Shown here one piece after another: positions 39,543-56,600 of a DNA stretch of 64,000 bases (positions within the stretch are counted from its first letter, which is position 1; each line of letters starts with the position of its first letter). The position numbers and the translations under genes were made by a program. Below the pieces are notes generated by a model that worked only from the letters and a program-made list of their open reading frames with translations, was not told the origin of the DNA and ran no database searches. This DNA is from Candidatus Moraniibacteriota bacterium (GTDB taxonomy: Bacteria > Patescibacteriota > Minisyncoccia > Moranbacterales > UBA1568): assembly GCA_049287005.1 (NCBI GenBank), contig JBAQEZ010000003.1, positions 95,493 through 159,492 on the forward strand, in the 5' to 3' direction.

Positions 39543-39977
39543 ATGAGGCTGCGGAAAGTGTTCCTATCGATGCTTTTTGTAGCCTTTTTTCTTTGGCTGC
39601 ATTTTTGGCTACGCGCCTGGATGGTGGCGACACACGATGATACAACACTGTGCAACCCCGGTGGACCATTTGGGGTGATTTTCCCAGTGTGGCTGCTGAT
39701 CGCCTTCAGTTGCGGGATAGTGCTTCTTTTGTTGGGAGCGTGGCTGAAAGAAAAAGGCGTTGTCTTTGGTTGGCTATGGCTTCTCATCCTTTCCGGTGGC
39801 TTGGGAAACCTGTTGGAACGTATCCTTTTTGGTTGTATTATAGACTATGTAGCCCTGCCGTTTTTTCCGGTGTTCAATCTGGCAGATGTGTTACTGACCA
39901 TCGGGACGATAGGGATTTTGTGGGGCGCGCGTTCCAAGAAACAAGAGAAAGATTCACTGAATATTAGAAATGAGTAA
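39543..39977 (+). CDS. lspA: lipoprotein signal peptidase II
   Basis: The LspA motifs are all present: N.GG.FG (CNPGGPFG), GGLGNLLERI, IIDYV, FPVFNLADV. Confidence 0.8.
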   Translation: MRLRKVFLSMLFVAFFLWLHFWLRAWMVATHDDTTLCNPGGPFGVIFPVWLLIAFSCGIVLLLLGAWLKEKGVVFGWLWLLILSGGLGNLLERILFGCIIDYVALPFFPVFNLADVLLTIGTIGILWGARSKKQEKDSLNIRNE

Positions 39978-40671
39978 TGAGCTGTTTCTTCATAATACTA
40001 TGTCAGCGAAAATTTTTTCTGCGACAACCTTGGGGTTGGAAAGCGTTTCTGTAGAAGTGGAGGTGGATGTTCTGTCCGCAGGACTTCACGCTTTTACGCT
40101 GGTTGGATTGCCGGATACGGCTATCAAGGAATCGCGCGACCGTGTCAGCGCCGCGCTCAAAAATAGCGGTTTCAGGCCGCCGCATCAATGCGGTCGCGTG
40201 ACCGTCAATCTCGCTCCGGCCGATCTGCCGAAAAATACTCCCATCTATGATTTACCGATGGCGTTGGGATTTCTCTTGGCGACAGAACAACTCTCTTTCG
40301 ATCATCGAAAAAAACTATTCATCGGAGAACTGGCTTTGGATGGTAGCGTGCGCCGCGTGCAAGGCGTCTTGCCTATCGCTTTGTATGCGAAAGAAAAAGG
40401 GTTCCAAGAAATTTATGTTCCGGAGGATAACGCGTATGAAGCGGCGCTGGTCGAAGATATCGACGTGATTCCCGTGAAGCATCTTTTTGCTGTCGCGAAA
40501 CATCTGTGCGGGGAAAAATTGATAGAGCCGTACCGGCGAGAAGCGGTAGTCTTCTCTACGGAGGAATATGATGGACTGGATATGGCCTACGTACTGGGCC
40601 AAGAACACGCCAAGCGGGCGCTCGAAATCGCGGCGGCGGGAGGGCACAATACGCTAATATACGGTCTATAA
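39970..40671 (+). pseudogene. comM: comM/yifB (Mg-chelatase-like AAA+ competence protein) N-terminal fragment, truncated by island insertion
   Basis: Ends ...AKRALEIAAAGGHNTLIYGL*, exactly where ComM normally continues into the Walker A (GGHNxxxxGPPGSGKT). The continuation is found at 51467. Confidence 0.8.
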
Positions 40672-40727
40672 AGTTGACAAATAGGAAATAAGGTATATAG
40701 TGGCTATACATAAGTTAAAGCCATTAT

Positions 40728-42515
40728 ATGGAGAACGCCGTAGGCTACATAAGGGTATCTTCCGAAAAACAAGACTACGAGCGTCAAAGGGACGAGATTA
40801 TTCAGTATGCCGCTAAAAACAACTTTACAGTAGTTAAATTCTTTGAGGACAAGCACTCTGGAAGTGACTATGATGAGAGGAGAGGCTTTCAGGAGCTTCT
40901 TATTTTTTTAGACGAGAATTCTCATATCAAGATAGTTATCTTTGATGAGATCAGCCGTATGGGGCGGGATACTGCTATGCAGGTAACGACCTATAAGGCA
41001 CTCTCAAAGAAAGGCATTAGGATTTTCACAAGAGGCAAGGGTGAATTTGGGAGTAATAAAGAGGACAACCTCTTATTTACAGTTCTTTCAGCAATCGCTG
41101 ACTATGAGAAGCAGACAATCATAGATAGAACCTCGTCAGGACGTAGAAAAGTCGTCAGGGACGGGTTTACGCAGATAAGCAGGCGTCCTTATGGATATAA
41201 CCTCGTTTTGACCGTAAAACAGAATAGGCAAGTCATAAAAAGGCAATCAATTGAGGTAAACAAAGAGGAAGCAGAAGTCGTTAAAAGAATGTTTGAAATC
41301 GTGGCAAAAAATGGGACTTCCTTTGACGCATTAAAGTATTTGAGCAACAGCAAGGTAAAACCACCCAAAGGGAAGAAATGGGGTAAATCTACTGTCTTGC
41401 GGATTCTCCATAACACTACTTATTATGGCGAGTGGAGATTTGGGAAGTACGTGAAAAATCATAAAACAAGGTATTCATTAGCAAAAAGAAAAGAGGAAGA
41501 TTTAACCATTGTTAATGTCCCGGCTATTATTTCCAAAACTCTTTTTGATGTTGTTCAGGAGAAATTGTCTAAAAATAAAACTAGCTTTAATCCTAGAAAC
41601 AGTAAAAGCACCTTTCTTTTGCAGGGAATGCTTCGTTGTGCGTGCGGCAAGTTAATGCAGTGTTACACGGAAGCAAGGACAAAAGAGAGGATTTACCGCT
41701 GTCCTCAAAGGAATATAGCAGGGGTAAGTGAAAAAACCTGTCAGATCCATTCGTTTAAAGCTGATTTTATTGAACGAATCTTTTTGCAGGAGGTGAAAGA
41801 AAGGATTGGAGATAAAGAGTTTTTAAAGGAAGAAAAGCTGAAAAAGCTTACTACGTTAAAAGAGCCATTGAACCGTCTTGAAAAGGAGCTTGATTCTACG
41901 AAAGAATCGTATGAATCGGATATCATCAACCTGAAACAATACTATGAGAAGTCTGTTATTCTCCAATCTAGTGATCCTGATAAAGCGAGGATATTTGAGG
42001 GGCTGGCAGATAATCTTTTAGAAAAGACAAAAGGACACAAAGAAACAATAGGAAAGTTAGTAGAGGAAATAAAGAAACTCAAAGAAAAAAGCATTGATTA
42101 TTCTTCATTCAAAGACCTCAAAAAGGCACTTGCGTATATTACTCAAAAGGACATTGAAGAATATGACGAATCTGCGCTTGATAAGAAAATTAAGTTAGCG
42201 AGAACTTACTTGAAAGAGGTGGTAGTAAGATTTCTTAATGAAGAAACAGAAAAACTACGGAGGGGGGTATTGGAATTGAGAAGCAGGGGAGTTTATAAAA
42301 AGGGAAATGAGGGTTACCGGAAGTTATATTTTAGTGTTGTTAATAAGGAACATATGCTTCGCAGGAATGCGGCAATTGTTGTAGGATTTGAGGTAAGTTT
42401 TGTGAATAACTTCCAATTGTTTGTTAAGTTTCCTTATTTACACGATCAACCGGAGCTTTTACAAAACTATGCAAAAGAGGGACGGGGAGTATCTTTAATC
42501 CCCTCTCACTTCTAA
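40728..42515 (+). CDS. large serine recombinase (resolvase/invertase N-domain + recombinase domain + zinc ribbon + coiled coil)
   Basis: VGYIRVSSEKQDYERQRDEI (catalytic Ser); CACGKLMQCYTEARTKERIYRCPQ zinc ribbon; 595 aa. Confidence 0.85.
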   Translation: MENAVGYIRVSSEKQDYERQRDEIIQYAAKNNFTVVKFFEDKHSGSDYDERRGFQELLIFLDENSHIKIVIFDEISRMGRDTAMQVTTYKALSKKGIRIFTRGKGEFGSNKEDNLLFTVLSAIADYEKQTIIDRTSSGRRKVVRDGFTQISRRPYGYNLVLTVKQNRQVIKRQSIEVNKEEAEVVKRMFEIVAKNGTSFDALKYLSNSKVKPPKGKKWGKSTVLRILHNTTYYGEWRFGKYVKNHKTRYSLAKRKEEDLTIVNVPAIISKTLFDVVQEKLSKNKTSFNPRNSKSTFLLQGMLRCACGKLMQCYTEARTKERIYRCPQRNIAGVSEKTCQIHSFKADFIERIFLQEVKERIGDKEFLKEEKLKKLTTLKEPLNRLEKELDSTKESYESDIINLKQYYEKSVILQSSDPDKARIFEGLADNLLEKTKGHKETIGKLVEEIKKLKEKSIDYSSFKDLKKALAYITQKDIEEYDESALDKKIKLARTYLKEVVVRFLNEETEKLRRGVLELRSRGVYKKGNEGYRKLYFSVVNKEHMLRRNAAIVVGFEVSFVNNFQLFVKFPYLHDQPELLQNYAKEGRGVSLIPSHF

Positions 42516-42680
42516 TCATTCTTCTAACTTTTGGCTATGGAATCAGGTAATTTATAAGTATTATTGGGTGGTCAAAAAATGCAGATTGAGGCTTGATTAA
42601 AGGTAATTTATGTGGTAAAATAATTGTGTTGGAAATACCGCAGAATACCGCAGTCTTAAAAAGAGTAAGCACAAAATAAT

Positions 42681-43835
42681 ATGGCAAAAATAATCAAAGC
42701 AAAGATTGAAAATCTAAAATACCGAGCGGGTAACTCAATGAGGGAAAACGGGTTGACTGAATATAAACTTGGTAACTTTGATGTGAACGAAGCATCGGCA
42801 AGTGGTATAGTAGAGATTAATGGCAAAAACAAAATTGCATATTCAAAATGGGTTACGCCAAAACGAACAAGGTCATATCCATTTGCAAGGATTTATGACA
42901 CATATAGTTTTGGTGGTAAGAGAATAACCATAATACCAATTATTAAAGATGAAGGCGTTGGTGCTTCAAAAAATAAATCAAATAATGACAGAATAAACTT
43001 CATTACGTTGTCTTGGATGAACCTTACCAATATATTTGTAATACTCGCTTGGTATTCAGAAGCAGAAAGGAAAAGTGAATACCGCATTACTAACCAAAGG
43101 TTTGACAATGACTATATAAAAACGAAAATAAAGGAAATCAGTGAATACCAGTTTGATGCTCATCACTGGAACAATAATCATTTTATAAAAGATTTTCGTG
43201 CTGTGTATGAAAAAGCAGTTTCTTCATATGAGCATATAGCAAAAAAACTGTCCGTGAAGTTGCACCCATCATCAAGACACAAAGCTTTCTTGGAAAAAAT
43301 AATTGATAAGTCAAACCCCAAGATAATTAGTCTGAACGGTTTTGCCTTGGAAACTCTAGCTAAATCAAGGTTGGCGGCGGCGAGGGAAGTTATTGTAAAA
43401 CACAAAAACGAATACCTGTCTCTTGATAGCGAAAAACTCCTATTTGAAATAATAAACAACCTTGGTGGCAGTTATTTTTTGACTGCTGACGAAATCATTA
43501 TTGATGGAGATAAGAAAAACCTGACCATACAGGAAGCCAAAAACGCAACAACAGGGAAGTTACCAAAATCGGCAGATATAAAAGACGGTTTATTCAAAAT
43601 ACTTTTGTTTTCCCAAATAAAAACAATTCATTTGGATGGCATCAAATATGACTATACAGTTACTTTGAAGCTAACTGGTAACCTTTCTTCAACTTTGCTA
43701 CTTCCAAACAATAAAAAGAATATATCTGCCTTTATCAAAAAAGAAAAACTGTCCGGTCCTGATATGGGAGCTATTTTTATGCTGAACGAGGAAGCTACAG
43801 AAAATAACTATGAGGTTAAAATCACCAGTAATTAA
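42681..43835 (+). CDS. hypothetical protein; candidate PD-(D/E)xK restriction endonuclease partner of the Dam-class MTase
   Basis: Possible catalytic IIIDGD ... LTIQEAK (D...ExK) near the C-terminus; sits in the same orientation 2 genes upstream of the MTase. Weak. Confidence 0.35.
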   Translation: MAKIIKAKIENLKYRAGNSMRENGLTEYKLGNFDVNEASASGIVEINGKNKIAYSKWVTPKRTRSYPFARIYDTYSFGGKRITIIPIIKDEGVGASKNKSNNDRINFITLSWMNLTNIFVILAWYSEAERKSEYRITNQRFDNDYIKTKIKEISEYQFDAHHWNNNHFIKDFRAVYEKAVSSYEHIAKKLSVKLHPSSRHKAFLEKIIDKSNPKIISLNGFALETLAKSRLAAAREVIVKHKNEYLSLDSEKLLFEIINNLGGSYFLTADEIIIDGDKKNLTIQEAKNATTGKLPKSADIKDGLFKILLFSQIKTIHLDGIKYDYTVTLKLTGNLSSTLLLPNNKKNISAFIKKEKLSGPDMGAIFMLNEEATENNYEVKITSN

Positions 43836-43843
43836 AATCCCCT

Positions 43844-44395
43844 ATGAGATATTATTCTTCAAAAGAAACTATATCGCTGGATGATGAAATTATAAAAAAA
43901 GCAAAAGAGTTCGCAGACAAAGTAGTTGGGACTATTAATTACGGAGATAGCAATCAGTTTGATCTAATCAAAATTGCAAACGACCATTTTATTAGTAAAA
44001 TTGGCGAGGAGGCTGCTAAAAAAGTATTTGAAAGTTTGGGAAAAAACGTTCAGGGTCCCAATTACACTATTTATGAAAAAAAAGAAAAAAGTTGGGATGC
44101 TGACCTCCTGATAGATAGTAGCGTAGAGGTCGCCGTAAAAACACAAAAAAAATCAGCCGCTGATAGATTTGGCTTATCTTGGACTTTTCAGGCATCACCA
44201 GAGCGCAGGGATATAATTTTGGATAATAAGGACGCGTGGGTGGTTTTTGTTGAGTGTAATGATAAAGATGGTTCTTTTGATTGCACTGTTTATCCGCCCT
44301 ATCAAATAAAAGAATTAACATTCGGAGAACCAAAACTTGATTATTTGAAAGGAAAAAAGAAAGTTGTTTACGCAACCAATTTACCCATAATTTGA
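43844..44395 (+). CDS. hypothetical protein, translationally coupled to the MTase (ATGA overlap)
   Basis: 183 aa; stop overlaps the MTase start codon; possible D...EVAVK motif. Confidence 0.45.
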   Translation: MRYYSSKETISLDDEIIKKAKEFADKVVGTINYGDSNQFDLIKIANDHFISKIGEEAAKKVFESLGKNVQGPNYTIYEKKEKSWDADLLIDSSVEVAVKTQKKSAADRFGLSWTFQASPERRDIILDNKDAWVVFVECNDKDGSFDCTVYPPYQIKELTFGEPKLDYLKGKKKVVYATNLPII

Positions 44396-45261
44396 GAGAT
44401 ATGATAACAACACCTTTAAGATATCCGGGCGGAAAAGCTAAAGCAATAAAAAAAATACTGCCTCTTGTCCCAACATTTTCCGAGTTTAGAGAGCCATTTC
44501 TTGGCGGCGCTTCTGTTTTCCTGGCTTTGAAGCAGAAGTATCCAGATAAGAAATACTGGGTGAATGATTTAAACAATGACCTATATCATTTTTGGATAAA
44601 TCTAAAGAATAATTGTGAAAAACTTGTAAGAGGGGTTCAGAGGAAAAAGGATATAGAAAAAGATGGTAGGGTGTTACATAAAAATCTTGTTGAAAATAAT
44701 CCAAAATCAAGTATTGGGAAGGCAATTAGATTTTTTGTGCTGAACAGAATAACATTTTCTGGGACTATTGAAGCGGGTGGTTATTCCCAAGGTGCGTTTG
44801 AGGCTCGTTTTACACAATCCTCTATTCGTAGACTGAAGCCTGTTAGTTCAGTATTAAATGATACTGAAATTACAAACCTTGACTATGAGAAACTGATTAA
44901 CAAAAAAGGTAAGGACGTATTCATTTTTTTAGATCCCCCATATTTGTCTGCAACAAAGTCTCGTCTATATGGGAAGAAAGGTAATTTGCATACAAGCTTT
45001 GACCACAAAAGATTTGCGAGAGTTATGAAAAAAACGAAGCATAAATGGATGATTACTTATGATGATTGTCCAGAGGTTAGGGATTTGTTTGCATTTGCCA
45101 ACATTTTAAGTTGGGAGTTTCAGTATGGTATGAACAACTACAAGCAGGAAACTGCGGCGAAAGGGAAAGAGCTTATCATTACAAATTACACGCTCCCGGA
45201 GCCTGAAACGCTATTTTCAATGAATGAGGTTTCACTAAAAATTACAAAAGTTACAGCGTAA
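44392..45261 (+). CDS. Dam-class (D12, alpha-group) N6-adenine DNA methyltransferase
   Basis: Motif I region RYPGGKAKAI / FLGGASVF and motif IV DPPY (IFLDPPYLSATKS). Confidence 0.8.
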   Translation: MRDMITTPLRYPGGKAKAIKKILPLVPTFSEFREPFLGGASVFLALKQKYPDKKYWVNDLNNDLYHFWINLKNNCEKLVRGVQRKKDIEKDGRVLHKNLVENNPKSSIGKAIRFFVLNRITFSGTIEAGGYSQGAFEARFTQSSIRRLKPVSSVLNDTEITNLDYEKLINKKGKDVFIFLDPPYLSATKSRLYGKKGNLHTSFDHKRFARVMKKTKHKWMITYDDCPEVRDLFAFANILSWEFQYGMNNYKQETAAKGKELIITNYTLPEPETLFSMNEVSLKITKVTA

Positions 45262-45426
45262 TAATTTATGAAGGTAGTCAATGTCTTATGTGTATCAACT
45301 GAAGAATAAAAGGGGGCAGGCAATTCTTTGCCCGCCCAGATTGAGTGTGTAAAAAAACTGTTGTAAGAAAAAGTCTTTTATGCAAAGTCCCCGATAGCCT
45401 AGATAATGAATCTATTCAAAAAATAA

Positions 45427-45828
45427 ATGAATAATTCCAATCGGTCACAACTTTATGAAGAAGAGTTTGATTTTATCTTTAACAAAAAAGGATCTGGTGT
45501 AAGGCGCGCGACAGTAATTTCTGCATTTATAGAGTGGCAGATAATTTCACTGGCAAGCAATTTTTTAGAGGAAAGGAACGTCGTACACAAGCCAGAACCA
45601 TATCAAGAGTATAGCCAGTCTTTCTATGTTTTAAAGGTGAATAGTGTTCTTACCACGGAAGAATTAGAAAGGGTAAAAAAATTTCGTAAGGAAAGAAATA
45701 AATCTATTCACGGGATATTCAAAGGTATGACACGTCCTGAATGGGATAGACAGAATAAACTTGTGATAAATCTCGGTAAGCCAATCGTAAAGGAACTAGA
45801 TAAAAAGCTTTATTCTTCTAATATATAA
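45427..45828 (+). CDS. hypothetical protein
   Basis: 133-aa ORF in the island; no motifs recognised. Confidence 0.45.
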   Translation: MNNSNRSQLYEEEFDFIFNKKGSGVRRATVISAFIEWQIISLASNFLEERNVVHKPEPYQEYSQSFYVLKVNSVLTTEELERVKKFRKERNKSIHGIFKGMTRPEWDRQNKLVINLGKPIVKELDKKLYSSNI

Positions 45829-45837
45829 TCGTTAATT

Positions 45838-46098
45838 ATGACCGTCCACATAGGCTACCGCTTCTACCCATTGAAAGAGCTATTACAAGCACTCAAAAAA
45901 GATAGGCAAACTTTAATTTGTGATTTGCCTTTTGAGTTAAGAATTCGCCAATTTTTTGAAAGCGAATTTAGTATAACGGGGAAAGAAGAACGTCCTTTGT
46001 CTGATGAAGAAGTGGAAAAGTTGGTAGAGCATTACAAATCTTTCCAAAAAATCTTTGAAGAAAAAGGGTTATTGCCTGTCAAAAAGTTAAACTTGTAG
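45838..46098 (+). CDS. hypothetical protein
   Basis: 86-aa ORF 10 nt after the previous gene. Confidence 0.4.
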   Translation: MTVHIGYRFYPLKELLQALKKDRQTLICDLPFELRIRQFFESEFSITGKEERPLSDEEVEKLVEHYKSFQKIFEEKGLLPVKKLNL

Positions 46099-46205
46099 AT
46101 TCCCCCATTATGTATTTAAAAGTATTTTTCTATCTTGCTGAAAAGAATCTTTATGCAAAGGTCTGGAAGTAAGGTAGTCTAGATAATAAATCTGGATATG
46201 TTTTA

Positions 46206-47369
46206 ATGATGAAAACCATTTTTACTAGGGATAGGATCAGAAAGGCGATTACTAGGACAAAACCGTGGGCAACGCCGATTTTTGCTCAATTGTGTATTGG
46301 AAACCACGAAAGCCTAGTTGTATTACGAAGTCAAATAGAAAAATGGTTGAAAAATGTTCCCAAAGAGAAAAGAAAAGACCTTGCGAGCAGGTTGACGCAG
46401 TGGGACGATATGAATCACCTCTCTGCATTTTTTGAATTGATGTGGCATCAATTTTTTCTTGAAGAGAAATTTCGCGTCTGTAATGAACCAGTTCTAGACA
46501 ATGGGAAAAAGCCAGAGTTTCTTTTATATACAAAATATGGTGATTTTTTATTTGAAGTGATAACCTCATTTGATGAGAAAACTTTGTATAAGAAGAAAAA
46601 GATTACGGAGGAAATTTTAGGGAAAACGAGTGAAATCAGTCATCATTTTAGGATAAGCCTTTCGTTAGATAAGTGGTTTGGTCACGATTTCAAATCTTCA
46701 TTGTTTCTAAAATTTGTAGTGAACCAGTTAGATTTATTGTTGTTGGCTAGAAATCAAAATCAAGAAAAGTTTGAGCCGATAACATATCGTCAGAAAGACT
46801 ATGTAATTGAAATTGATATTTCTTCTTTCCAAGAGAAACGTGGGAAAATTTTGGCAGGCGTTTCATATCCCGGTTATTCAGGGACTCTTGGGTCAAAACA
46901 AATCAAATCTAGATTGCAGAAAAAAATTACAAATTATAAAAACGTGGTTGATCTCAAAAAACCATTAGTTGTCGCGGTCTGTAATGATAATAGCAATTCG
47001 TTTATTGGGAATTCTGTGGAATATGATTTATTCGGGAGACCAACTGTTCATTTTAGCATTGACGGCTCTGGAAAGTCTTATTGGGGAAGAGATAATAGCG
47101 GAATTTTTATGCAAAGAAATGCTGATAGATCACCAAGAAATACTAGATTGAGTGCGGTAATTCAGTGTGCAAGGAAGTGGGGGAAAACAAAAAAATATAA
47201 GAATGGGTCGTATATTTATGATATGGCTGTTTATCATAATCCATTTGCGGCATTTCCAATCAGTAAAAATGTCTTTTCCAAATTTGCTCAATATATCCCA
47301 CATCAAACGAAAACTGGTGGCGTAATGAAATGGCGAAATAAGAAAGAGAATAGATACATTGTGTTTTAG
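46206..47369 (+). CDS. hypothetical protein
   Basis: 387-aa ORF; no motifs recognised. Confidence 0.5.
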   Translation: MMKTIFTRDRIRKAITRTKPWATPIFAQLCIGNHESLVVLRSQIEKWLKNVPKEKRKDLASRLTQWDDMNHLSAFFELMWHQFFLEEKFRVCNEPVLDNGKKPEFLLYTKYGDFLFEVITSFDEKTLYKKKKITEEILGKTSEISHHFRISLSLDKWFGHDFKSSLFLKFVVNQLDLLLLARNQNQEKFEPITYRQKDYVIEIDISSFQEKRGKILAGVSYPGYSGTLGSKQIKSRLQKKITNYKNVVDLKKPLVVAVCNDNSNSFIGNSVEYDLFGRPTVHFSIDGSGKSYWGRDNSGIFMQRNADRSPRNTRLSAVIQCARKWGKTKKYKNGSYIYDMAVYHNPFAAFPISKNVFSKFAQYIPHQTKTGGVMKWRNKKENRYIVF

Positions 47370-47410
47370 TGGTTTCTATCTAGCTGAAAGTAGCTTTTTC
47401 ACTCTTTTTG

Positions 47411-47578
47411 TTAAGCCATTTGATCTATCTGCCCCAAATCCATTTCCAGATTGAGTAAGCACTGTTGCTCGGTCATATCCGGATACTTCGCTTGAAGCTT
47501 CTCCACCGCGTCCCAAATCATTTTTGGAGGGTAGGTGGCTAGTGTTGGGTATTCTTTTTTGTCTAGTTCTTTATTCAT
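47411..47578 (-). CDS. 55-aa hypothetical protein (below the ORF-track size cutoff)
   Basis: Manual translation MNKELDKKEYPTLATYPPKMIWDAVEKLQAKYPDMTEQQCLLNLEMDLGQIDQMA; last gene of a minus-strand operon. Confidence 0.3.
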   Translation of the reverse strand: MNKELDKKEYPTLATYPPKMIWDAVEKLQAKYPDMTEQQCLLNLEMDLGQIDQMA

Positions 47579-47597
47579 AGATATTATTGTGCTGTAT

Positions 47598-48017
47598 CTA
47601 GTGACGAAATCGGGGGGTTATGCACATAGTTTGGATTTCATAAAAGAGCTTTCCATTCGGAAAATAGTACAGATATTTTTCTTCAAAAGGATCCCGAAAG
47701 ATTTCCTTTTTTACTCCATCAACAAGTATCCCGTCAGATTTGGAACAGATAGCTACCCGACCGGTATCCACCAATTCCAAAAGACCATAAGTGTCCTGTG
47801 TATCTTCCGGGTAATTGCTTGGCTTTGTTCGTAAATCTGTTTTGTTATAAAACACGGTAGCTTCTGATAGGCTATCTTGGCTATCGTATTTCTCTTTGGG
47901 CGAAAGCCTGATGATAGTAGTGCTTGTGCTTTCGTTGGGAATTGGATCTCTATGTTTGTAGGATTCAATCCTCTTTATTTGCTCTTGAAGCAGAGATTCT
48001 TTTTTATTGTCTAACAT
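47598..48017 (-). CDS. hypothetical protein
   Basis: 139-aa ORF within a co-oriented four-gene cluster. Confidence 0.45.
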   Translation of the reverse strand: MLDNKKESLLQEQIKRIESYKHRDPIPNESTSTTIIRLSPKEKYDSQDSLSEATVFYNKTDLRTKPSNYPEDTQDTYGLLELVDTGRVAICSKSDGILVDGVKKEIFRDPFEEKYLYYFPNGKLFYEIQTMCITPRFRH

Positions 48018-48036
48018 AAAACGTTCAATCTAAAAC

Positions 48037-48582
48037 CTACTTTAATTTTTTCAATTGGTTATTCCTTTCATTTACACATTCAGTAATGTTGCTATTATAT
48101 TCTTCTGTATAGGCGGGCTTATAATCATTAGCAAGCTGTTCTTGAAATCTTTCTTTGCTTTTTGAAAGACAATCGTTATATTTATCTATGGCTTTTTCAG
48201 CTATAACGTTTTTCTGTTTTATTAAATCACACTCGCTCTCGCTGACTTTGAGGGTAGTGCCGTCAAAAGCCAGACAGGATACTATTTTTTCTTCTACTTT
48301 TATTGGAGCAACTTCTACGCTTTTTATGGCTGTCTGGGTTTGTTGGGTAGTGGCTTCCGATACTGGAATGTCTTTTTCTGCTTCTTTATTTGCTTCTTGA
48401 TTGGTTTCATTTTTTGCTTGCAATTCCTCTACTGATTTTTGTAAGGCTTCAACTTGTTGTTTAGTTTTTTCTTTTTCATTTTTGATTACAAAATAGCCAG
48501 ACGCAACCGTTGTTGTTACTGCTGACGTTATAACTACTGTGAGCAATAATGCCCGGTGTTGTTGAAGAAAATCTTTAATCAT
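48037..48582 (-). CDS. membrane-anchored coiled-coil protein, hypothetical
   Basis: N-terminal TM (ALLLTVVITSAVTTTVASGYFVI) followed by a K/E/Q-rich coiled coil; overlaps the upstream gene by 8 nt. Confidence 0.45.
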   Translation of the reverse strand: MIKDFLQQHRALLLTVVITSAVTTTVASGYFVIKNEKEKTKQQVEALQKSVEELQAKNETNQEANKEAEKDIPVSEATTQQTQTAIKSVEVAPIKVEEKIVSCLAFDGTTLKVSESECDLIKQKNVIAEKAIDKYNDCLSKSKERFQEQLANDYKPAYTEEYNSNITECVNERNNQLKKLK

Positions 48583-49069
48583 ATTTATTGTCAGACCAGC
48601 CGTTTTCTTTTTTTAACTGATGTAATTTTAATAACCAATTGAGTTTTGTGTAGAATGTAAGTAATGCCATTGCTAATCCACAAAAGAGAGCCAATCCTAC
48701 CAACCCAAGTATCAATTCACCCAGTAGCCCTATCCCTTTTGGTGTTAGATCGTAAAGTTGTGAAAAACCAAATAAAAAAATAATCACTAACGTAGTGGCT
48801 AGTATATTTGATACTATTTTCACGCCACCGGTCAGCTCGGTATTTTTTATATAGTGCATTGTACGTATAAAACATTTTATATCACGCAACTTTGAACTTA
48901 TTAATTTTCGTTGTTCTTTGGTGAGATCAGAAACTTTCTCAATTAATAGATTTCGTTGTAAAGCAAAATAATATTTCTCGGAACAATCACCACAAAGGGG
49001 TTCATTATCTTCTGTCCACTTATCAGGACAATCCATTATTTTTTTACACCAAACACAGCTTTCTTCCAT
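48575..49069 (-). CDS. zinc-ribbon (CxxC...CxxC) protein with two C-terminal TM helices, hypothetical
   Basis: CVWCKKIMDC...CGDCSEKYY, then two hydrophobic helices. Confidence 0.5.
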   Translation of the reverse strand: MEESCVWCKKIMDCPDKWTEDNEPLCGDCSEKYYFALQRNLLIEKVSDLTKEQRKLISSKLRDIKCFIRTMHYIKNTELTGGVKIVSNILATTLVIIFLFGFSQLYDLTPKGIGLLGELILGLVGLALFCGLAMALLTFYTKLNWLLKLHQLKKENGWSDNKYD

Positions 49070-49723
49070 AGATACTATAAATAAAAAAAGGCAACCCTAC
49101 TGGTTGCAACACCCAACTAGACGATTATGCCCAGCTGTTTGAAGTAGGATTGCCCTTTTCAGGCACAATCCCACCTGCATAAAGCAAGGGTTTTTAGTTG
49201 AGTGTTGCATACTTAAATTACCACGAAAAACGTCCAGAATCAAACGTAAAAATTTGACTTTTTTCCAATTTGCGTGTATACTGTATGCAGTTGTTTATCA
49301 ATTATTGTAAAGAGTTTGGAAATCTGTTTAGTGAAATGTTGATTTTTCCACTGCGCGGAGAGAACCTCCCCAGTAACTTGTTGGTTGATTGAAGCTAAAT
49401 AAGATCCCAGACGATTCCTTTTGAGGAACATTATTTTTATCATAGGTTATTGCATACACACAGAGGGCGGAAAAGAGGGTTGATATCCTCTCTGACGAAA
49501 ACTCATTCTCCATAAAAAGAGATATGTCAGTCCGATCATTGTAACTGTTGTAGGGCGTTCAGAATAAACGTTAAGTAAGGCTCAAAGAAATCATTATCAA
49601 ATTAGGCAGGTTAGTTTCTGCTCTCTTTGGTGGTTATTTCTTTGAGTTTTTTTGTTATAAGAAAGAGGGTAGGCGTAATTTGCCTGCCCTCTTTTATTTG
49701 TCTAATCCATTAAACACACAAGT

Positions 49724-49924
49724 ATGCGGTCAATAGAAGCAAGGTTCAAAAAAGTGCAGGTCAGGAATTTTATCAAGAGTTCTTATGATTGTTTTGCAGA
49801 GGCAATATCGGGGCAGAAGTTTAGCAGGGAAGTGATCCATCGCTGGTTTATGAAACTGGTCAATAAAGACGATTATGCTAAAAGAGAGAAAAAAGAGTTA
49901 TTGCTATATCTGGAAAGTTTATGA
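49724..49924 (+). CDS. small hypothetical protein
   Basis: 66 aa, downstream of a 650-bp divergent regulatory region. Confidence 0.3.
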   Translation: MRSIEARFKKVQVRNFIKSSYDCFAEAISGQKFSREVIHRWFMKLVNKDDYAKREKKELLLYLESL

Positions 49925-50567
49925 AACGTCCGAGGACGACAGAAAATGCGGGGGTAAAGGCGGTTTGGGAGAGGGGCAAAGGGTAAATGATACATATTTA
50001 CCAAGTACCACGAGAAACAATGCTTAAAACGAGTTTTGTAAAAATAAGAATCAAATATGAAAAAGAAATGGTTAAGGAATAGAAACTATTATAAGTATTC
50101 CTTTTCTAACAAACCTGTCCATTGAAAATGAGGGTCAAATAGCTCTTGCCGGTGGCGAATAATAAGCCCAAGGTAATAAGCTAACGCCGGTTTGTTCGTT
50201 CCGGTAAATTCAAAACGATAGTCCGTGCGTTATACAGGAACTGGGGCGCAAGGAATACACATTATGGAGAGTGAAATCTCCTACCCAATGCTTCTTGTTA
50301 ACAGTAGCAAGATAACCGTTCCGAAAAAGGAAGCTGGGCTGCGGTACGCTCTAAATTACCGCCCTTGTGTCGCTATCCATATGAACAATCGTGTGGATAG
50401 CGATGTAAGGATAATAGTTTCAAAATCGTTAGCGACCCCCTCATTTTCAGGTTCCGGATACATAGCCGATCAAATAACCCACTCAAAAAGACGGGAAACT
50501 ACAACCATATATCGCAATCTCTTATAACCATATTAAATAGCTAATAAGAATAATTATTTATAAGTAT

Positions 50568-51104
50568 ATGGACAAAAAAAAGAAAAAAAAGAGAGGTGTT
50601 TATCTAAAAAATATGAAACAGAAAGAGAAACTAGAAGAATATGACCCCAATAATGGCAAGGGACTGAAATTACAATGGCTCAATTTCATAAAAGAATATA
50701 TCAAAAACGGGGGAAACGCTACGGAAGCCTATATAACAGCATACCCAGAAGTTAATAGGGAATCGGCGAGGCGCAATGGGTCGCGCCTGTTGACACACGC
50801 AGACATTATAGGAGAAATCGGAAACCGTTATGACGTTCAGACGGCGACGGACGCTTGGGTTATTGCTACGGCTATGAAATACGCCAAAGCAGGGTTAGAG
50901 AACCCCAAAGTGGCACTAGCCGGAGTGAAAGCACTAGAAATGATCGCTAGGAGCAAGGGTATGCTAACGGACGTTCAAAAAGTGGAATTTACAGCAGAGA
51001 ATCCGGCAGTTTTCTTTGCTCCATATAGCAAGGAAGAAGCAGAAGAAATGGATAAAATGTTCCAGCCGAAAGACGGGAAACCCCCAATTCGGATAATTGA
51101 ATAG
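50568..51104 (+). CDS. phage terminase small subunit-like protein (P27/Terminase_2 family)
   Basis: GGNATEAYITAYPEVNRESARRNGSRLLTHADI is the characteristic TerS HTH; 178 aa. No terL, portal or capsid genes are nearby. Confidence 0.65.
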   Translation: MDKKKKKKRGVYLKNMKQKEKLEEYDPNNGKGLKLQWLNFIKEYIKNGGNATEAYITAYPEVNRESARRNGSRLLTHADIIGEIGNRYDVQTATDAWVIATAMKYAKAGLENPKVALAGVKALEMIARSKGMLTDVQKVEFTAENPAVFFAPYSKEEAEEMDKMFQPKDGKPPIRIIE

Positions 51105-51466
51105 ATTACTAGAAAAAAGCCTTTTTGGTGAAAACGTTATGGAAAGAACCCGGGAAAATCAGGATAGAGTTTCTACTCCACGGGTAGCTGGTTCTTCCTT
51201 TGGCTCTATTCCTTTAAGGAGTTTTGGGAGTATAATAGAGTATGACAGTCGGATAGGCTTAAAACAATTGAGCAGGGAGATCCCTAGTAACGCATTTATA
51301 TTCAATGTAGGGAGTACTTATGTTGTTGTCGTTTTATAGTGGCTTATGATATATCTCATTTATGGAACAGGGGGCTATTCAATTAACTTTCCTTAATCCA
51401 CTATCCTTTCTAATAAGGGGTTGGAGTTGGTTTATTAGAGAATTCCCAGAAAAGCGTGTTTCTGAC

Positions 51467-52345
51467 CACAATATGATTTTCATCGGACCGCCGGGATCGG
51501 GGAAAACGCTTTTGGCGAAAACATTGCCCACCATCCTGCCGAAGTTGGATTTGGCCGAGAGTCTGGAAATTACCAAAATATTTTCGATCGCCGGATGTTT
51601 ACCAAAAGATAAATCGTTGATCATGACACGACCGTTCCGTTCCCCTCACCATACAGCCAGTGCGGTCTCTCTCGTGGGTGGCGGTTCTTTTCCGAAACCG
51701 GGAGAAATCAGTCTGGCACACCGAGGAGTATTGTTTCTGGATGAGTTCGCGGAATTCTCGCGGACGGTTTTGGAGAATTTGCGTCAGCCGCTCGAAGACG
51801 GGGAAATCACCGTCTCCCGAGCTAGAGGGTCTTTGCATTTTCCGGCGCGTTTCATGTTGGTGGCGGCGATGAATCCGTGTCCGTGCGGGCACGCAGGAGA
51901 CCCGCAGCGTGCCTGTGCTTGCGCGCCGTATCAGGTGGTGCGTTATCGACAGAAAATTTCCGGACCGATCCTGGATCGTATCGATCTGCATATTGATGTG
52001 CCGCGAGTGAAATTCGAGAAGCTGGCAGAAAAAGAAACCGGTGCAGAAAAAAGCAACGTTATCCGGGCGCGAGTCGAAAGTGCACGGGCCATACAGAAAG
52101 AGCGCTTCGCGGAGAAAACGTGTCGAACCAACGCGGAAATGACGAGCCATATGGTGAAAGAATTCTGTGTGTTGAACGATGAGACGCGGGATATTTTGCG
52201 TAGTGCTGTATCGCAATTGAAGCTTTCTGCGCGCGCCTATATGCGGATTTTGAAAGTGGCTCGGACAATCGCGGATTTGGCACAGGTGCCGTCTATCGGG
52301 GTCTCGCATCTGGCCGAAGCGCTCCAGTATCGATTCAAAGAGTAA
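51467..52345 (+). pseudogene. comM: comM/yifB C-terminal fragment (AAA+ and Mg-chelatase C-terminal domains)
   Basis: HNMIFIGPPGSGKTLLAKTL... continues the interrupted N-fragment. Track ORF 51362..52345 starts inside island DNA. Confidence 0.8.
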
Positions 52346-53644: not shown

Positions 53645-56600
53645 GTGGTATTATTTCAATGGATGGTTGTTGTTCAAACAGCTATTTTGAGTGTAGAAAA
53701 AAGAAACAGCAGTATGCAAAACGTCTTGTCGGCGCATCAAAGAAGAAAACGGTATCAGATGAAAAATCGCAGACGGCTGGGGTGTTTTGACGGCGGCGCG
53801 TATCAATCGCGGGTCAGTATTTTGTGGCGACGCTTACGACAGCAGTATCGGCGATGGCAAGCGGAGGTATCCGCGCCTATGGCGGCGCACATACTTGATT
53901 TTTTCGTGCGAACCAAGAGGCCGAAATCATTCGATAGTGTCAAGGCGAAAAGAAGTATTTCCCGGAACAAGAGAGGGCGATCTCCTTTCGGTCTTGCTTC
54001 CATGTGGTACCGGCGGTATATAGCATTCAATCCGGTGGCCAAGGTTTCGGCCCTCCTTATCGTCATGCTGCTTAGTGGCGTGTACCTCTTTCCTTTTGGA
54101 ACACAGGGTGCGACTTTCACGTTCGTCCAAACTTCCTGGCTCGGCGGAGCCACCGCGAATCCCGCCACTCACGCGAGCAACCAGACCGGTTGGACGGAAT
54201 ATGCCAGCAAGGACACGAATGTCTCAGCGGTGAATGGAGGTGCGGACGTGACTCTGACGTCGACCAACTACGCTTTCACCGATGATGGGACAACGGATGT
54301 CTCGCCAACCGGAGGAGTCGCTACATCCGGGGGCGGGTTTGGGAACGGGACGAATGCCAGCACGACCGTAACCGGCAGCGGGACAGGGGCGAGCGTGGGG
54401 CTCGCGGGTTCGGTTACCGCATTCGATACCCGAGATGATTATACAGTAGGCACCAACCCCCAGTTTGCCGCCTTCGACTCCTCTACGAATTCCGTCTGGG
54501 TGTCGAATTACGCCTCCGGCAACGTCACAAAACTCAACCCCGCCACCGGCGCGGTTATCGGTACCTATACGGTCGGCACCAATCCGGTCGGTGTCCTCTT
54601 CGATCCTTCCACCAACTCTATCTGGGTTGCGAACAACGGTTCAGACACCATTACGAAACTCAATGCCTCCACCGGTGCCCCGACCGGCACCTATAACACG
54701 GGAACCCACCCGAGAACGCTCGCCTTCGACTCTTCCACCAACTCTATCTGGGTATCGCAAGAAGGTGCGTATGTTTCAGGTTCCGTCGCTAAATTCAATG
54801 CCTCCACCGGTGCCCTCCTCGGTACGTATCCCACGTCTGCCTATCCGGGTAATATCGCCTATGATGATTTTACCAACTCTATCTGGCAGGCGAGCGGCGG
54901 CGACAGCAAGCTTTACAAGCTCAACGCTGCTACGGGCGCCCTGACTGCTAGCTCCACCTCGGGTATGGGGTCCTCACTGACTTACGATTCTTATACTCAC
55001 TCCATATGGCTGGGGAGATTCGGTTACTCTGACCCCGAAATTAAAAAATTCGACGTTACCACCGGGGCAAACACGGCTACGGTATATATTGCATCCGTTA
55101 ATGATACTGGGTATGTCAACTTTGACCCTGCGACCAACACTATCTTAGTGACAGGGACTAGCAACAATACCGTTACGAGATTCGATGTCTCCACCGGCGC
55201 GACTCTTGGTGTGTATAGCACCGGCACTACCCCGCAAAGCGCCATCGCCGACCCCTCTACCAACTCCATCTGGGTGACGAACTACGGCACGAACACCGTC
55301 TCCAAGATCAGTGGCCTCACCGGGTCCACTTCGGCGAACTATACTGTCGGCACTACTCCGCAAAATGCCGTCTTTGACCCCTCCACTAATTCCGTCTGGG
55401 TAGCGAACTACGGCTCCAACAATGTTAAAAAACTTAATGCTTCCACCGGAGCGGTCACCGGCACCTATACCGTGGGTACCAGTCCTTATGCCATTGCTTT
55501 CGACTCGTCCACCAACTCCGTCTGGGTGACCAATAGCGGATCCAGCAATGTCAAAAAACTCTCTGCCGCCGACGGCACGGTCACGGGTACCTATACAGCA
55601 AGCACCAGTCCCAGGGGCATTGCTTTCGACTCGTCCACCAACTCTATCTGGGTATCAAACTTCACCTCCAATAACGTCACCAAACTCTCTGCCGCCGATG
55701 GCTCGTACATCGGTACCTATCCTGTAGCCACAGGAGGGAACCCTCTTGGTGTTGCTTTCGACTCCTCCACTAATTCCATTTGGATAGCTAATAGCGCTAC
55801 TGCCAACGTCACCAAACTCACTGCCGCCACCGGTGCGCTTGTCGGCACGTATGCCGCAGGCACCACCCCGACACGTTTGGCCTTCGATTCTTCAACCAAC
55901 TCTATTTGGGTGACCAATAGCGGATCCAATAACGTCAAAAAACTCAGTGCCGCCGACGGTTCGGTTACCGGTACGTATACCGTAACTAGTGCCAGTGGGA
56001 TTGCCATCGATCCCACCACGAGCTCTGTTTGGGTGTCGAGTGGGGGTGCTAGTAACACGCTTGTCACTAAACTCAATCTTGCTACTGGCGCGACAATAAA
56101 GACCTATACGGTGGGGACTCAACCATCGGGAGTGACTTTCGACTCCTTCACCAATTCCATCTGGGTTGCGAACTACAGCACTAATAACATCACTAAAATA
56201 GTCACCGGCACCACCACGTATTCCACCCCCGGCACCTTCACCTCCGCAGTCATTGATCTGGGGACCGGCGTTGGCTTTGGCACGATGTCGTGGACGGCCA
56301 CGCTCAACAGCCAGACGCTCACCATGAAGGCTCGTTCCTCCGCCACGGTAGACTTTTCCGGCGCCACCGCGTGGGCGAGCTGTACCGACATCACGAGCGG
56401 CGCCGCGCTCTCTACCGGCGGCTGCATCACCGATGGTCACCGATACATTCAGTATCAAGCCGCCTTCTCCACTGCCGATACCGCCATCACCCCCGCTCTC
56501 AATAGCGTCTCTATCGCCTATGGCCAATACGGTAGCGGCACGCTTACCTCATCTATTTACAACTCTTCCTCCGCGGCCAATCTTCTTTCCAGACTGACAT

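What the first reader, a model, noticed from the sequence alone, without database searches (positions are those of the whole stretch)
39970..52345. comM (yifB) is split by a 10.8-kb serine-recombinase island; att junction lies inside the GGHN-Walker A segment
The 39970..40671 ORF ends ...AAAGGHNTLIYGL*. The 51467.. frame resumes HNMIFIGPPGSGKT..., together reconstituting a complete ComM/YifB AAA+ protein.

The ~10.8 kb between them is AT-rich. It begins with a 595-aa large serine recombinase and ends with a terS-like gene. A short shared CACAAT sits at both junctions, consistent with the small crossover core of serine recombinases.

comM is a known hotspot for other element types (transposon-borne resistance islands). 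A serine-recombinase element using this site in a small-genome bacterium is worth documenting.
Basis: partly seen in the sequence, partly recalled or inferred. Interest (0 to 1): 0.7.

Follow-up and report, generated by a model that had tools for sequence, protein, structure and literature searches.

The report
Mobile island splitting competence gene comM
A 10.8-kb mobile DNA island, inserted by its own serine recombinase, splits the DNA-uptake helicase gene comM of an ultra-small (Patescibacteria) bacterium; the insertion is real, but recombinases of this type are already known to favour this gene.

Summary
comM is split at the GGHN/Walker A codons by a 10,822-bp low-GC island (0.364 against 0.49-0.50 in the flanks). 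The host is a Candidatus Moraniibacteriota bacterium.

The island carries a 595-aa large serine recombinase (LSR), a type II restriction-modification pair and unknown genes. It also has a small terminase gene (terS) but no large terminase, portal or capsid gene.

Syntenic and near-identical relatives have an intact comM. About 30 LSRs form a distinct clade. At least seven of them sit at the same comM codons, in either orientation and with different cargo. One relative (L100) carries an unintegrated attP.

It is the CT of the Leu codon 4 bp downstream, so the correct join is 40655|51478, giving GGHNTLFIGPPG as in intact relatives. The window's attR reads AT there, so this copy may no longer be able to excise.

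The insertion itself is not new. Mg-chelatase/ComM genes are the commonest known LSR target (12.4% of site-specific LSRs), and phage WO uses the same gene in Wolbachia.

The new parts are modest: a Patescibacteria-specific LSR clade, and terS-only islands that look like phage satellites with swappable defence cargo. That satellite reading is untested.

The parts
40000..40655 (+). comM 5' part: ChlI/Lon-like N domain and the start of the AAA+ domain, through ...GGHNT-L(CT). The listed ORF starts at 39970, but intact homologues start at the Met at 40000.
   Evidence: Pfam ChlI and Mg_chelatase on the joined product. It aligns to L001 positions 10000-10648. It is 88-91% identical to the intact 507-aa ComMs P0088-P0092.
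40654..40655 (+). attL central (crossover) dinucleotide, CT.
   Evidence: CTAAT is invariant in five attL sites and one attP. CT lies at the dyad centre of the L100 and L086 attP and is present in both junctions of L082/L114 and L086.
40656..40727 (+). P' arm of attP plus the LSR promoter (TTGACA-16-TATAGT at 40674..40701). It supplies five codons and the stop (..IYGL*) that end the comM 5' ORF at 40671.
   Evidence: Best promoter-like site in the island, 11 of 12 matches. The arm is conserved in L082, L096, L084, L088, L100 and L086.
40728..42515 (+). Large serine recombinase (595 aa).
   Evidence: PF00239 4.3e-30, PF07508 8.5e-22, PF13408 3.8e-7. phrog_95 integrase 4.7e-78. Compared with L082 there are 69 synonymous and 21 non-synonymous codon changes.
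42681..43835 (+). Type II restriction endonuclease (384 aa).
   Evidence: PADLOC REase_II PDLC03572, 2.5e-58. No Pfam or PDB sequence match.
43844..44395 (+). 183-aa protein of unknown function between REase and MTase. It overlaps the MTase start by 4 bp.
   Evidence: No Pfam, PADLOC, NCBIfam or PDB match.
44392..45261 (+). D12-class (Dam-like) N6-adenine DNA methyltransferase (289 aa).
   Evidence: PF02086 4.9e-42. PADLOC MTase_II 3e-125. TIGR00571 scores 111 bits, just under its cut-off.
45427..46098 (+). Two small ORFs (133 aa and 86 aa) of unknown function.
   Evidence: No family match.
46206..47369 (+). 387-aa protein of unknown function, possibly a defence gene.
   Evidence: Only weak PADLOC hits: PD-T7-5 5.3e-6 and PD-T7-1 3.3e-4. 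The single-sequence AF2 model is unusable, pLDDT 35.
47411..49069 (-). Leftward gene block of 55, 139, 181 and 164 aa. The 139-aa gene (47598..48017) is a conserved backbone gene of the terS islands. By sequence inspection only (inference), the 181- and 164-aa products have hydrophobic segments.
   Evidence: The 139-aa product is 73% identical in L081/L082 and 40% identical in the tyrosine-integrase islands L094/L095. No family match.
49724..49924 (+). 66-aa ORF that starts the rightward block. It is conserved next to terS in L094/L095.
   Evidence: 50% identical over 66 aa in L094/L095.
50568..51104 (+). Small terminase subunit (TerS, 178 aa), with no TerL, portal or capsid gene in the island.
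   Evidence: PF03592 37.9 bits against a cut-off of 26.1. phrog_51 9e-17. It is 35% identical to an IMG/VR protein directly upstream of a TerL. Compared with L082 there are 48 synonymous and 27 non-synonymous codon changes.
51139..51339 (+). Conserved 66-aa ORF downstream of terS.
   Evidence: 77% nucleotide identity to L109 3804-4030, where a 67-aa gene is called. A 66-aa gene is also called in L114.
51440..51475 (+). P arm of attP (AATTCCCAGAAAAGCGTGTTTCTGACCACAATATG). It mimics the comM codons HNM.
   Evidence: Homologous to the left half of the L100 attP and to the L114 attR.
51476..51477 (+). attR central dinucleotide. It reads AT where CT is expected, implying a C-to-A change at 51476.
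   Evidence: L114 attR has CT. Six other split-comM 3' ORFs encode Leu at this codon, whereas the window encodes Ile.
51478..52345 (+). comM 3' part: Walker A GPPGSGKT, the rest of the AAA+ domain and Mg_chelatase_C.
   Evidence: Pfam. It aligns to L001 up to position 11520. Annotated in NCBI as a YifB-family protein, P0087.

Best explanation
A 10,822-bp integrative mobile element sits inside comM of a Candidatus Moraniibacteriota (Patescibacteria) chromosome.

**How it inserted.** Its own LSR recombined an element attP with an attB formed by the comM codons GGHN-T-L-F-I-G. The 2-bp crossover was at the CT of the Leu codon (attL 40654-55). The P' arm, which also holds the LSR promoter, ends the comM 5' ORF after five extra codons. 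The P arm mimics the HN(M) codons in front of the comM 3' part.

**Effect on the host.** ComM, the branch-migration helicase of natural transformation, is therefore split (shown). Inactivation follows from the Walker A motif being separated from the N-terminal domain (inference). This may protect resident mobile elements from being removed by transformation (inference from the literature).

**Cargo.** The element carries a type II restriction-modification pair and unknown genes.

**How it probably spreads.** Its conserved backbone is the LSR, a 139-aa leftward gene, TerS and a 66-aa ORF. It has a TerS but no TerL, portal or capsid gene. This points to spread by hijacking the packaging machinery of a helper phage, as SaPI-type satellites do (inferred, about 0.45).

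**State of this copy.** attL has CT but attR has AT at the crossover. LSR-mediated excision of this copy is therefore probably blocked (inferred from one base).
For: **The split and the empty site.**
- The joined product has complete ComM domains.
- L001 is syntenic for about 8 kb upstream and carries an intact comM.
- The closest intact ComMs read GGHNTLFIGPPG, which is exactly the join at 40655|51478.

**Foreign origin.** GC is 0.364 against 0.49-0.50 in the flanks.

**An LSR clade specific for this site.**
- About 30 proteins are 44-97% identical, and the next-best LSRs reach only 29%.
- Seven distinct members lie next to comM fragments that break at residues 226-232: the window, P0001, L096, P0012, P0016, P0017 and L099.

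**Mobility.**
- The LSR is 94% identical in nucleotides to that of L082, while the host ComM N-terminal parts are only 62% identical in amino acids.
- The cargo differs between them: a type II R-M pair here, two methyltransferases plus a ResIII helicase there.
- L100 carries P arm-CT-P' arm joined together, that is an unintegrated attP.

**Crossover at CT.**
- Both junctions of L082/L114 and of L086 contain CT.
- The attP of L100 and L086 are palindromic around CT.
- With CT as the crossover, the P' arms of both orientation types align without gaps.
- The two elements inserted the other way round (L086, L099) have AG on the LSR-sense strand. This fits the rule that the central dinucleotide alone sets polarity (PMC3783163).

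**Genes are maintained.** Synonymous changes outnumber non-synonymous ones: 69 to 21 in the LSR and 48 to 27 in terS.

**TerS.**
- It matches Pfam and PHROG terminase families.
- Relatives 32-36% identical sit directly upstream of TerL and an SU10-like capsid gene in viral contigs.
- In six island contexts there is no TerL.
Against: **Against the satellite step.**
- No helper phage is known.
- No replication module or recognisable regulator was found in this island.
- The TerS model did not match solved TerS folds: pLDDT 65 and no Foldseek hit.
- TerS has no tblastn match in GenBank phages.

**Against a crossover at CT in this copy.** The window's attR has AT, so one must assume a later C-to-A change. 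Otherwise the only shared dinucleotides lie in CACAATA or CGG, both away from the dyad centre.

**Other limits.**
- The 'locked' inference rests on a single base in a metagenome assembly.
- Excision, circular forms and transfer were not observed for this copy.
Confidence: 0.6

Rival explanations
1. The element is an integrative defence island that does not depend on a phage. In this reading the terS-like protein is a DNA-binding regulator or an excision cofactor (recombination directionality factor) rather than a packaging protein. The island would move by some other route, such as uptake of excised circles or another element.
For: The Pfam match covers only the N-terminal helix-turn-helix part of Terminase_2, profile positions 7-52 of 141. 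The terS module always lies close to recombinase genes or att ends. It occurs with three different recombinase types and, in L091, next to an HTH_17 excisionase-like gene. No LSR directionality factor has been identified in the island. The fold search gave no TerS match.
Against: phrog_51 (terminase small subunit) matches residues 4-140 at 9e-17. A 35% identical homologue aligned over about 140 residues sits directly upstream of TerL in viral contigs. To my knowledge, no TerS-family directionality factor is known.
Confidence: 0.25
2. The island is a decayed prophage remnant that lost its structural genes and is now fixed in the chromosome.
For: It has no TerL, portal, capsid, tail or lysis gene. 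The attL and attR cores do not match, CT against AT, which would fix this copy in place.
Against: The same compact backbone occurs in a host whose ComM N-terminal part is only 62% identical, with 94% nucleotide identity in the LSR and strong purifying selection on both LSR and terS. The relatives are also small, 13.4 kb in L082/L114 and about 10.3 kb in L086. No pseudogenised structural genes were seen among the ORFs. An unintegrated attP exists in a relative.
Confidence: 0.1
3. The element is a regulatory switch of the 'active lysogeny' type, like phi10403S in Listeria comK or SPbeta in spsM. It would excise under defined conditions to restore comM and re-integrate afterwards.
For: The insertion is precise and in frame, so excision would restore an intact comM. 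Elements that interrupt competence genes are known to act this way (my own knowledge of the Listeria comK case). The LSR promoter lies in the P' arm and stays intact in the integrated state.
Against: In this copy the core mismatch argues against precise excision. There are no expression or excision data. The cargo (R-M systems) and the transfer between hosts point to a selfish mobile element. This reading does not exclude the best explanation for other copies.
Confidence: 0.05

Closest known systems
LSR-carrying mobile elements that target Mg-chelatase/ComM (YifB) genes, catalogued by Durrant et al. 2022 (PMC10083194)
   Same: A large serine recombinase at one end of a mobile element inserted inside the coding sequence of a Mg-chelatase/ATP-dependent-protease-like (ComM) gene. 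That paper reports this gene family as the target of 12.4% of predicted site-specific LSRs, and reports enrichment of competence genes among targets.
   Different: The paper's main text does not mention Patescibacteria. This LSR clade is at most 29% identical to the other LSRs found. I could not check whether those elements use the same codons of the gene.
Phage WO sr1WO prophages of Wolbachia (PMC9203015)
   Same: An LSR integrates into the magnesium chelatase gene of a reduced-genome bacterium, leaving gene halves on both sides. WO recombinases are the best GenBank-phage matches to this LSR.
   Different: Identity is only 27.7% over 59% of the protein. WO is a complete tailed prophage of 30-65 kb, whereas this is a 10.8-kb island without structural genes. 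The position within the gene was not compared.
SaPI-type phage-inducible chromosomal islands (phage satellites carrying their own terS)
   Same: Size of about 10-13 kb, a site-specific recombinase at one end, divergent leftward and rightward gene blocks, a terS of its own without terL or virion genes, and accessory or defence cargo.
   Different: The recombinase is a serine rather than a tyrosine type. No primase or replication-origin module and no recognisable repressor were found in this copy. No helper phage is known. Induction and packaging are untested. A literature search found no report of satellites in Patescibacteria.
AbaR/AbGRI (Tn7-like) and defence islands in comM of Acinetobacter baumannii (PMC11472951)
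   Same: comM is interrupted in its Mg-chelatase domain by elements that often carry defence systems. The proposed benefit is reduced removal of mobile elements by transformation.
   Different: Those insertions are made by Tn7-like transposition (TniABC...), not by a serine recombinase crossing over at a 2-bp core.
Serine-integrase prophages that interrupt genes, such as A118/phi10403S in Listeria comK and SPbeta in spsM
   Same: An LSR-mediated, reversible, in-frame interruption of a gene (a competence gene for comK), with polarity set by the central dinucleotide (PMC3783163).
   Different: The target gene and the host phylum differ. Those are complete phages. Regulated excision is not shown here.

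Membership tests
Large serine recombinase (serine integrase) | N-terminal resolvase catalytic domain with the serine nucleophile in a YxRVS motif | tested here: met
   PF00239 at 4.3e-30 over residues 4-145. The sequence reads GYIRVSSEKQ. Y7, R9, V10 and Q15 are invariant and S11 is nearly invariant across 30 clade members.
Large serine recombinase (serine integrase) | C-terminal Recombinase domain followed by a zinc-ribbon domain | tested here: met
   PF07508 at 8.5e-22 (residues 180-283) and PF13408 at 3.8e-7 (residues 297-357).
Large serine recombinase (serine integrase) | Short att sites with imperfect dyad symmetry around a 2-bp crossover that is identical in attL and attR | tested here: inconclusive
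   Met in relatives: CT in both junctions of L082/L114 and L086, and attP palindromic around CT in L100 and L086. In the window attL has CT but attR has AT.
Large serine recombinase (serine integrase) | A recombination directionality factor for excision | not testable with these tools
   These factors share no common sequence family. Several small ORFs in the island are candidates, but none can be assigned.
ComM / YifB AAA+ helicase | ChlI (Lon-like) N domain, Mg_chelatase AAA+ domain with Walker A, and Mg_chelatase_C, end to end | tested here: met
   The joined product matches PF13541 (residues 30-154), PF01078 (residues 204-410, profile 1-206 of 207) and PF13335 (residues 419-514). It is 88-91% identical to intact 507-aa homologues.
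LSR elements that target comM / Mg chelatase | LSR gene at the element end next to the two halves of a Mg-chelatase-family gene, with an uninterrupted gene in relatives | tested here: met
LSR elements that target comM / Mg chelatase | Common descent with the described comM-targeting LSRs, such as sr1WO | tested here: inconclusive
   The best phage hits are WO recombinases, but at 27.7% identity over 59% of the protein. No phylogeny was made.
PICI / SaPI-like phage satellite | Island of about 10-15 kb with a recombinase at one end and no virion or lysis genes | tested here: met
   10,822 bp with the LSR at the left end. The only Pfam or PHROG structural or lysis hit is terS.
PICI / SaPI-like phage satellite | A packaging-hijack gene: its own terS, or a capsid or terminase redirection gene | tested here: met
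   terS is present with homologues next to TerL in viral contigs. Its function is not shown.
PICI / SaPI-like phage satellite | Replication module (primase or replication initiator plus origin) | tested here: not met
   No primase or replication domain in the window island and no iteron-like repeats. Some elements with a related LSR do carry DnaG zinc-ribbon or Prim-Pol genes.
PICI / SaPI-like phage satellite | Induction by, and packaging into particles of, a helper phage | not testable with these tools
   This needs virome or read-level data, or an experiment.
Type II restriction-modification system | Adjacent REase and cognate MTase genes | tested here: met
   PADLOC REase_II at 2.5e-58 and MTase_II at 3e-125, with genes 9 bp to 0.5 kb apart on one strand. 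The specificity is unknown.

The most novel reading that the evidence does not exclude
The terS-only islands may be a family of phage satellites of Patescibacteria. I found no report of satellites in this phylum. The family is defined by a backbone of a 139-aa leftward gene, a 66-aa ORF, TerS and a second 66-aa ORF. These islands would swap recombinase modules: the comM-specific 595-aa LSR, a 502-aa LSR, or tyrosine integrases. They would also swap defence cargo: type II or type III-like R-M systems, or HATPase_c_3 systems. By choosing comM as a landing site they would also switch off transformation-driven removal of mobile elements in bacteria thought to depend on DNA uptake.
Probability: 0.35. 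Interest if true: 0.6.

Novelty: new member of a known kind. Interest (0 to 1): 0.4.

Why it matters
Patescibacteria are ultra-small, mostly uncultured bacteria with reduced genomes. They are thought to rely on DNA uptake, and natural competence is the route used for their genetic manipulation (my own knowledge).

A recurrent mobile element that knocks out ComM bears on how transformable these bacteria are, and on the conflict between mobile elements and transformation.

The finding also yields practical material:
- a defined attB/attP pair with its central dinucleotide;
- a distinct LSR clade that could serve as an integration tool for these organisms;
- a candidate first family of satellite-like defence islands in the phylum.

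As an observation it extends a well-documented pattern, LSRs targeting comM, and does not reveal a new mechanism.

Tried and rejected
**Crossover position**
I rejected it after comparing relatives with both junctions, an unintegrated attP, and the closest intact ComMs.
- A crossover at the shared CGG (the Gly codon) was considered. It was rejected because it lies about 11 bp from the dyad centre and would give HNTLIYG, which the closest intact relatives do not have.
- Simple dyad-symmetry scoring of the window's attB and attP was not decisive on its own.

**Searches that found little or nothing**
- Single-sequence scans of viral contigs with the LSR and with TerS found nothing. Only the TerS alignment found distant viral relatives.
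- The metagenome scan with the LSR alignment returned only 9 loci.
- The exact LSR protein is not on record in the assembly index.
- PDB sequence searches for the REase and the 183-aa protein gave nothing.
- tblastn of TerS against GenBank phages gave no match.
- No island gene is duplicated elsewhere in the window.

**Structure predictions**
- The AF2 model of TerS (pLDDT 65) gave no meaningful Foldseek match in the PDB.
- The single-sequence AF2 model of the 387-aa protein was unusable, pLDDT 35.

**The in-frame extension on the comM 3' ORF**
- I asked whether the element-derived extension in front of the comM 3' part is a selected coding sequence.
- Differences from L114 are spread evenly over codon positions (16, 13, 17), and the ORF is short in L100.
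- There is therefore no support for it being a real coding sequence.

**Right junction of the L081 lineage**
- I tried to reach it through terS homologues (P0060, P0063). These led to other contexts instead.
- It was finally obtained through the comM 3' fragment P0204.
Full report
**1. The observation**

- The ORF 39970..40671 ends AAAGGHNTLIYGL*, and the frame from 51467 reads HNMIFIGPPGSGKT.
- Between them lie 10.8 kb with GC 0.364. The flanks have GC 0.49-0.50.
- This stretch opens with a 595-aa protein carrying Resolvase, Recombinase and Zn_ribbon_recom domains.
- It closes with a Terminase_2 / phrog_51 small-terminase gene, followed by one small conserved ORF.
- Joined in silico, the two comM parts give an in-frame product. 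Its ChlI, Mg_chelatase (profile 1-206 of 207, one stretch across the junction) and Mg_chelatase_C domains are complete.
- There is no second comM in the window.

**2. Host and empty sites**

The best genomic matches to the joined ComM are metagenome-assembled genomes of Candidatus Moraniibacteriota and other Patescibacteria. In all of them comM is uninterrupted.

L001 is syntenic with about 8 kb upstream of the window's comM. Its comM aligns to the two window halves, which abut each other.

Closer relatives were found later. The intact 507-aa ComMs P0088, P0089, P0091 and P0092 are 88-91% identical and read EIAAAGGHNTLFIGPPGSGKT.

The source contig is probably a 766,823-bp NCBI Moraniibacteriota contig, which carries the identical TerS and ComM C-terminal part. 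This size fits a small genome.

**3. A recombinase clade dedicated to this site**

The LSR has about 30 relatives at 44-97% identity. The next-best LSRs reach only 29%.

Where context could be read, seven distinct members lie next to comM fragments that break at the same residues, 226-232 of the joined protein:

| LSR | Identity to window LSR | Loci |
|---|---|---|
| window | - | - |
| P0001 | 97% | L081-83 |
| (unnamed) | 96% | L096 |
| P0012 | 58% | L084/85 |
| P0016 | 53% | L086/87/98 |
| P0017 | 51% | L088 |
| (unnamed) | 66% | L099 |

Two more distant members, P0019 (51%) and P0027 (46%), are not next to comM. They lie in elements with DUF87/TrwB-type ATPases.

Among the 120 best ComM clusters, seven are 3' fragments of 290-328 aa. 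Six of these carry an element-derived N-terminal extension, and the seventh is the window's own fragment, called from the internal Met. So the site is occupied in a noticeable minority of these bacteria.

**4. Evidence that the element is, or recently was, mobile**

- The window LSR and that of L082 are 94.3% identical in nucleotides. The differences fall mostly at third codon positions (16, 12 and 74 at positions 1, 2 and 3), with 69 synonymous against 21 non-synonymous codon changes.
- terS shows the same pattern: 15, 18 and 59, with 48 synonymous against 27 non-synonymous changes.
- The two hosts' ComM N-terminal parts are only 62% identical in amino acids. The element has therefore moved between well-separated hosts.
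- The cargo between the conserved backbone genes differs. The window has a type II REase plus a D12 methyltransferase. L081/L082 have two N6/N4 methyltransferases plus a ResIII helicase.
- The L082/L114 element is 13,398 bp. The L086 element is about 10.3 kb.
- The 2.3-kb metagenome contig L100 (LSR 77% identical) carries the homologue of the window's right-end arm joined directly to the homologue of its left-end arm, upstream of the LSR gene. This is an intact attP, which means an unintegrated form exists.

**5. Where the crossover is**

It turns out to be similarity between the host B arm and the element P arm, not the crossover. Five lines of evidence place the crossover at the CT of the Leu codon in GGHN-x-L, 4 bp downstream.

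- In L082/L114, attL is ..CATAATATC[CT]AATGTATGGTCTATAAAG and attR is ..GAACACAATATG[CT]CATGTCGGGACC.
- In L086, both junctions also have CT at that codon.
- The attP of L100 (GCACAATATA-CT-AATATTGTGC) and the reconstructed attP of L086 are near-palindromes centred on CT.
- CTAAT is invariant in five attL sites and one attP.
- With CT as the crossover, the P' arms of all elements align without gaps, 23 nt from the core to the end of a TTGAC/TTTAC motif.

Two elements, L086 and L099, are inserted the other way round. Their LSR gene lies next to the comM 3' half. On the LSR-sense strand their core reads AG, the reverse complement of CT. This is what is expected if polarity is set only by the central dinucleotide, as established for serine integrases (PMC3783163).

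For the window, the join 40655|51478 gives GGHNTLFIGPPG. This is identical to the closest intact ComMs and has two more identities than the CACAAT join. The element length stays 10,822 bp.

**6. An anomaly in this copy**

The window's attL core is CT (40654-55), but the corresponding attR position reads AT (51476-77). The attR of L114 has CT. All six other split-comM 3' ORFs encode Leu at that codon, whereas the window encodes Ile.

The simplest reading is a C-to-A change at 51476 after integration. Serine integrases proofread the central dinucleotide, so attL x attR excision of this copy would be blocked. This is an inference from one base in an assembly and needs read-level confirmation.

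**7. What the island is**

Gene content:
- the LSR and the R-M pair;
- a 183-aa ORF inside the R-M operon;
- two small ORFs, and a 387-aa protein with only weak PADLOC hits (PD-T7-5, 5e-6);
- a leftward block of four genes;
- a rightward block with a 66-aa ORF, terS and another 66-aa ORF.

No TerL, portal, capsid, tail, lysis, relaxase or replication gene was detected, and no iteron-like repeats.

The best promoter-like site, TTGACA-16-TATAGT, lies in the P' arm in front of the LSR gene.

The terS family has 28 members at 60-100% identity. It recurs in small islands with different recombinases:
- this LSR at the far end of the island;
- a 502-aa LSR directly downstream (L110-113);
- two tyrosine integrases (L094/95);
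- an HTH_17 gene plus a type III R-M system (L091).

It often occurs together with homologues of the 139-aa and 66-aa genes, and never with a TerL.

In IMG/VR viral contigs, 32-36% identical relatives sit directly upstream of a TerL, followed by a roughly 700-aa protein and an SU10-like capsid protein.

A conserved TerS under purifying selection, in 10-13-kb islands without any other virion gene, matches the architecture of SaPI-type satellites. I therefore favour helper-phage packaging as the route of transfer, at about 0.45. The steps that remain untested:
- No helper phage is known.
- No replication module was found in this copy.
- The TerS structure model was too weak to confirm the fold.

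**8. Comparison with what is known**

LSR insertion into this gene is well documented.
- Durrant et al. found Mg-chelatase/ATP-dependent-protease homologues to be the target of 12.4% of predicted site-specific LSRs, with competence genes enriched among targets (PMC10083194).
- sr1WO prophages integrate into the magnesium chelatase gene of Wolbachia, another reduced-genome bacterium (PMC9203015). WO recombinases are the best, though distant (27.7%), GenBank-phage matches to this LSR.
- comM is also hit by Tn7-like AbaR islands and by defence islands in Acinetobacter. The proposed rationale is that losing ComM lowers the removal of mobile elements by transformation (PMC11472951).

Prophages of Patescibacteria have been described. 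I found no report of phage satellites in the phylum.

**9. Verdict**

The finding is real and its main interpretation is right. The crossover assignment and the novelty claim need correcting.

It is a new member of a known kind. The additions of modest interest:
- a Patescibacteria-specific LSR clade targeting comM, with defined attB, attP and core;
- insertion in both orientations, explained by an inverted core dinucleotide;
- swappable defence cargo;
- a satellite-like terS backbone shared among islands with different recombinases;
- a probable core mutation that locks this copy in place.

Noticed in passing
window 1..~9600: A second low-GC region (0.387), cut off by the window start. It carries a DnaG zinc-ribbon protein (1087-1698, minus strand), an ImmA/IrrE M78 peptidase (4903-5448, minus strand) and an 823-aa DUF4238 + SEC-C protein (6188-8656). 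The DnaG-like protein is 37% identical to a gene of the comM element in L084, and the ORF at 3000-3407 is 55% identical to a gene of the L081 element. This is probably another related mobile element.
   Followed up: partly
window 51362..52345: The island's right end supplies an ATG and 38 in-frame codons fused to the comM 3' half, giving a 327-aa chimeric ORF. Similar chimeric ORFs of 319-328 aa occur in six relatives (P0090, P0128, P0131, P0132, P0152, P0204). Differences from L114 are spread evenly over codon positions (16, 13, 17), so there is no sign that the extension is selected as protein. Whether a truncated ComM is made is unknown.
   Followed up: partly
window 51476: The attR central dinucleotide reads AT, while attL and all relatives have CT. 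The single-base difference would block LSR excision if it is real and not an assembly or population variant.
   Followed up: partly
window 45305-45337 and 49661-49698: A 19-nt inverted repeat, 95% complementary (AATAAAAGGGGGCAGGCAA / TTGCCTGCCCTCTTTTATT). Each copy lies in a strong terminator-like hairpin, and together they bracket a 4.36-kb segment holding the 133-, 86- and 387-aa genes and the leftward block. This may mark a module boundary.
   Followed up: no
L089 and L090 (LSR at 10001-11800 in each): Clade members at 51% and 46% identity are not next to comM. They sit in elements with a DUF87/TrwB-type ATPase and HTH regulators. In L089 a palindromic attP-like sequence lies upstream of the LSR gene (ACAATACT-AA-AGTATTGT); L090 has no obvious counterpart. 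They may be conjugative or plasmid-like relatives with a different core.
   Followed up: no
L110-L113; L094/L095; L091: The terS module (a leftward gene of 112-139 aa, terS, and a small ORF of 62-67 aa) occurs with other recombinases. These are a 502-aa LSR next to tsaD with HATPase_c_3 cargo, two tyrosine integrases, and HTH_17 plus a type III R-M system. This suggests recombinase-module exchange within one island family.
   Followed up: partly
window 53645..60289: A 2214-aa ORF with NHL repeats, fn3 and purple-acid-phosphatase N-terminal domains, in a region of raised GC (0.55-0.57) and negative GC skew. It is probably a giant surface protein.
   Followed up: no
L101 (upstream of the LSR at 1129): The sequence GCCGTGTTTATGACCACAATAC-CAGA-GTATTATG resembles an intact attP with an AG centre. 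This may be a second unintegrated relative.
   Followed up: no
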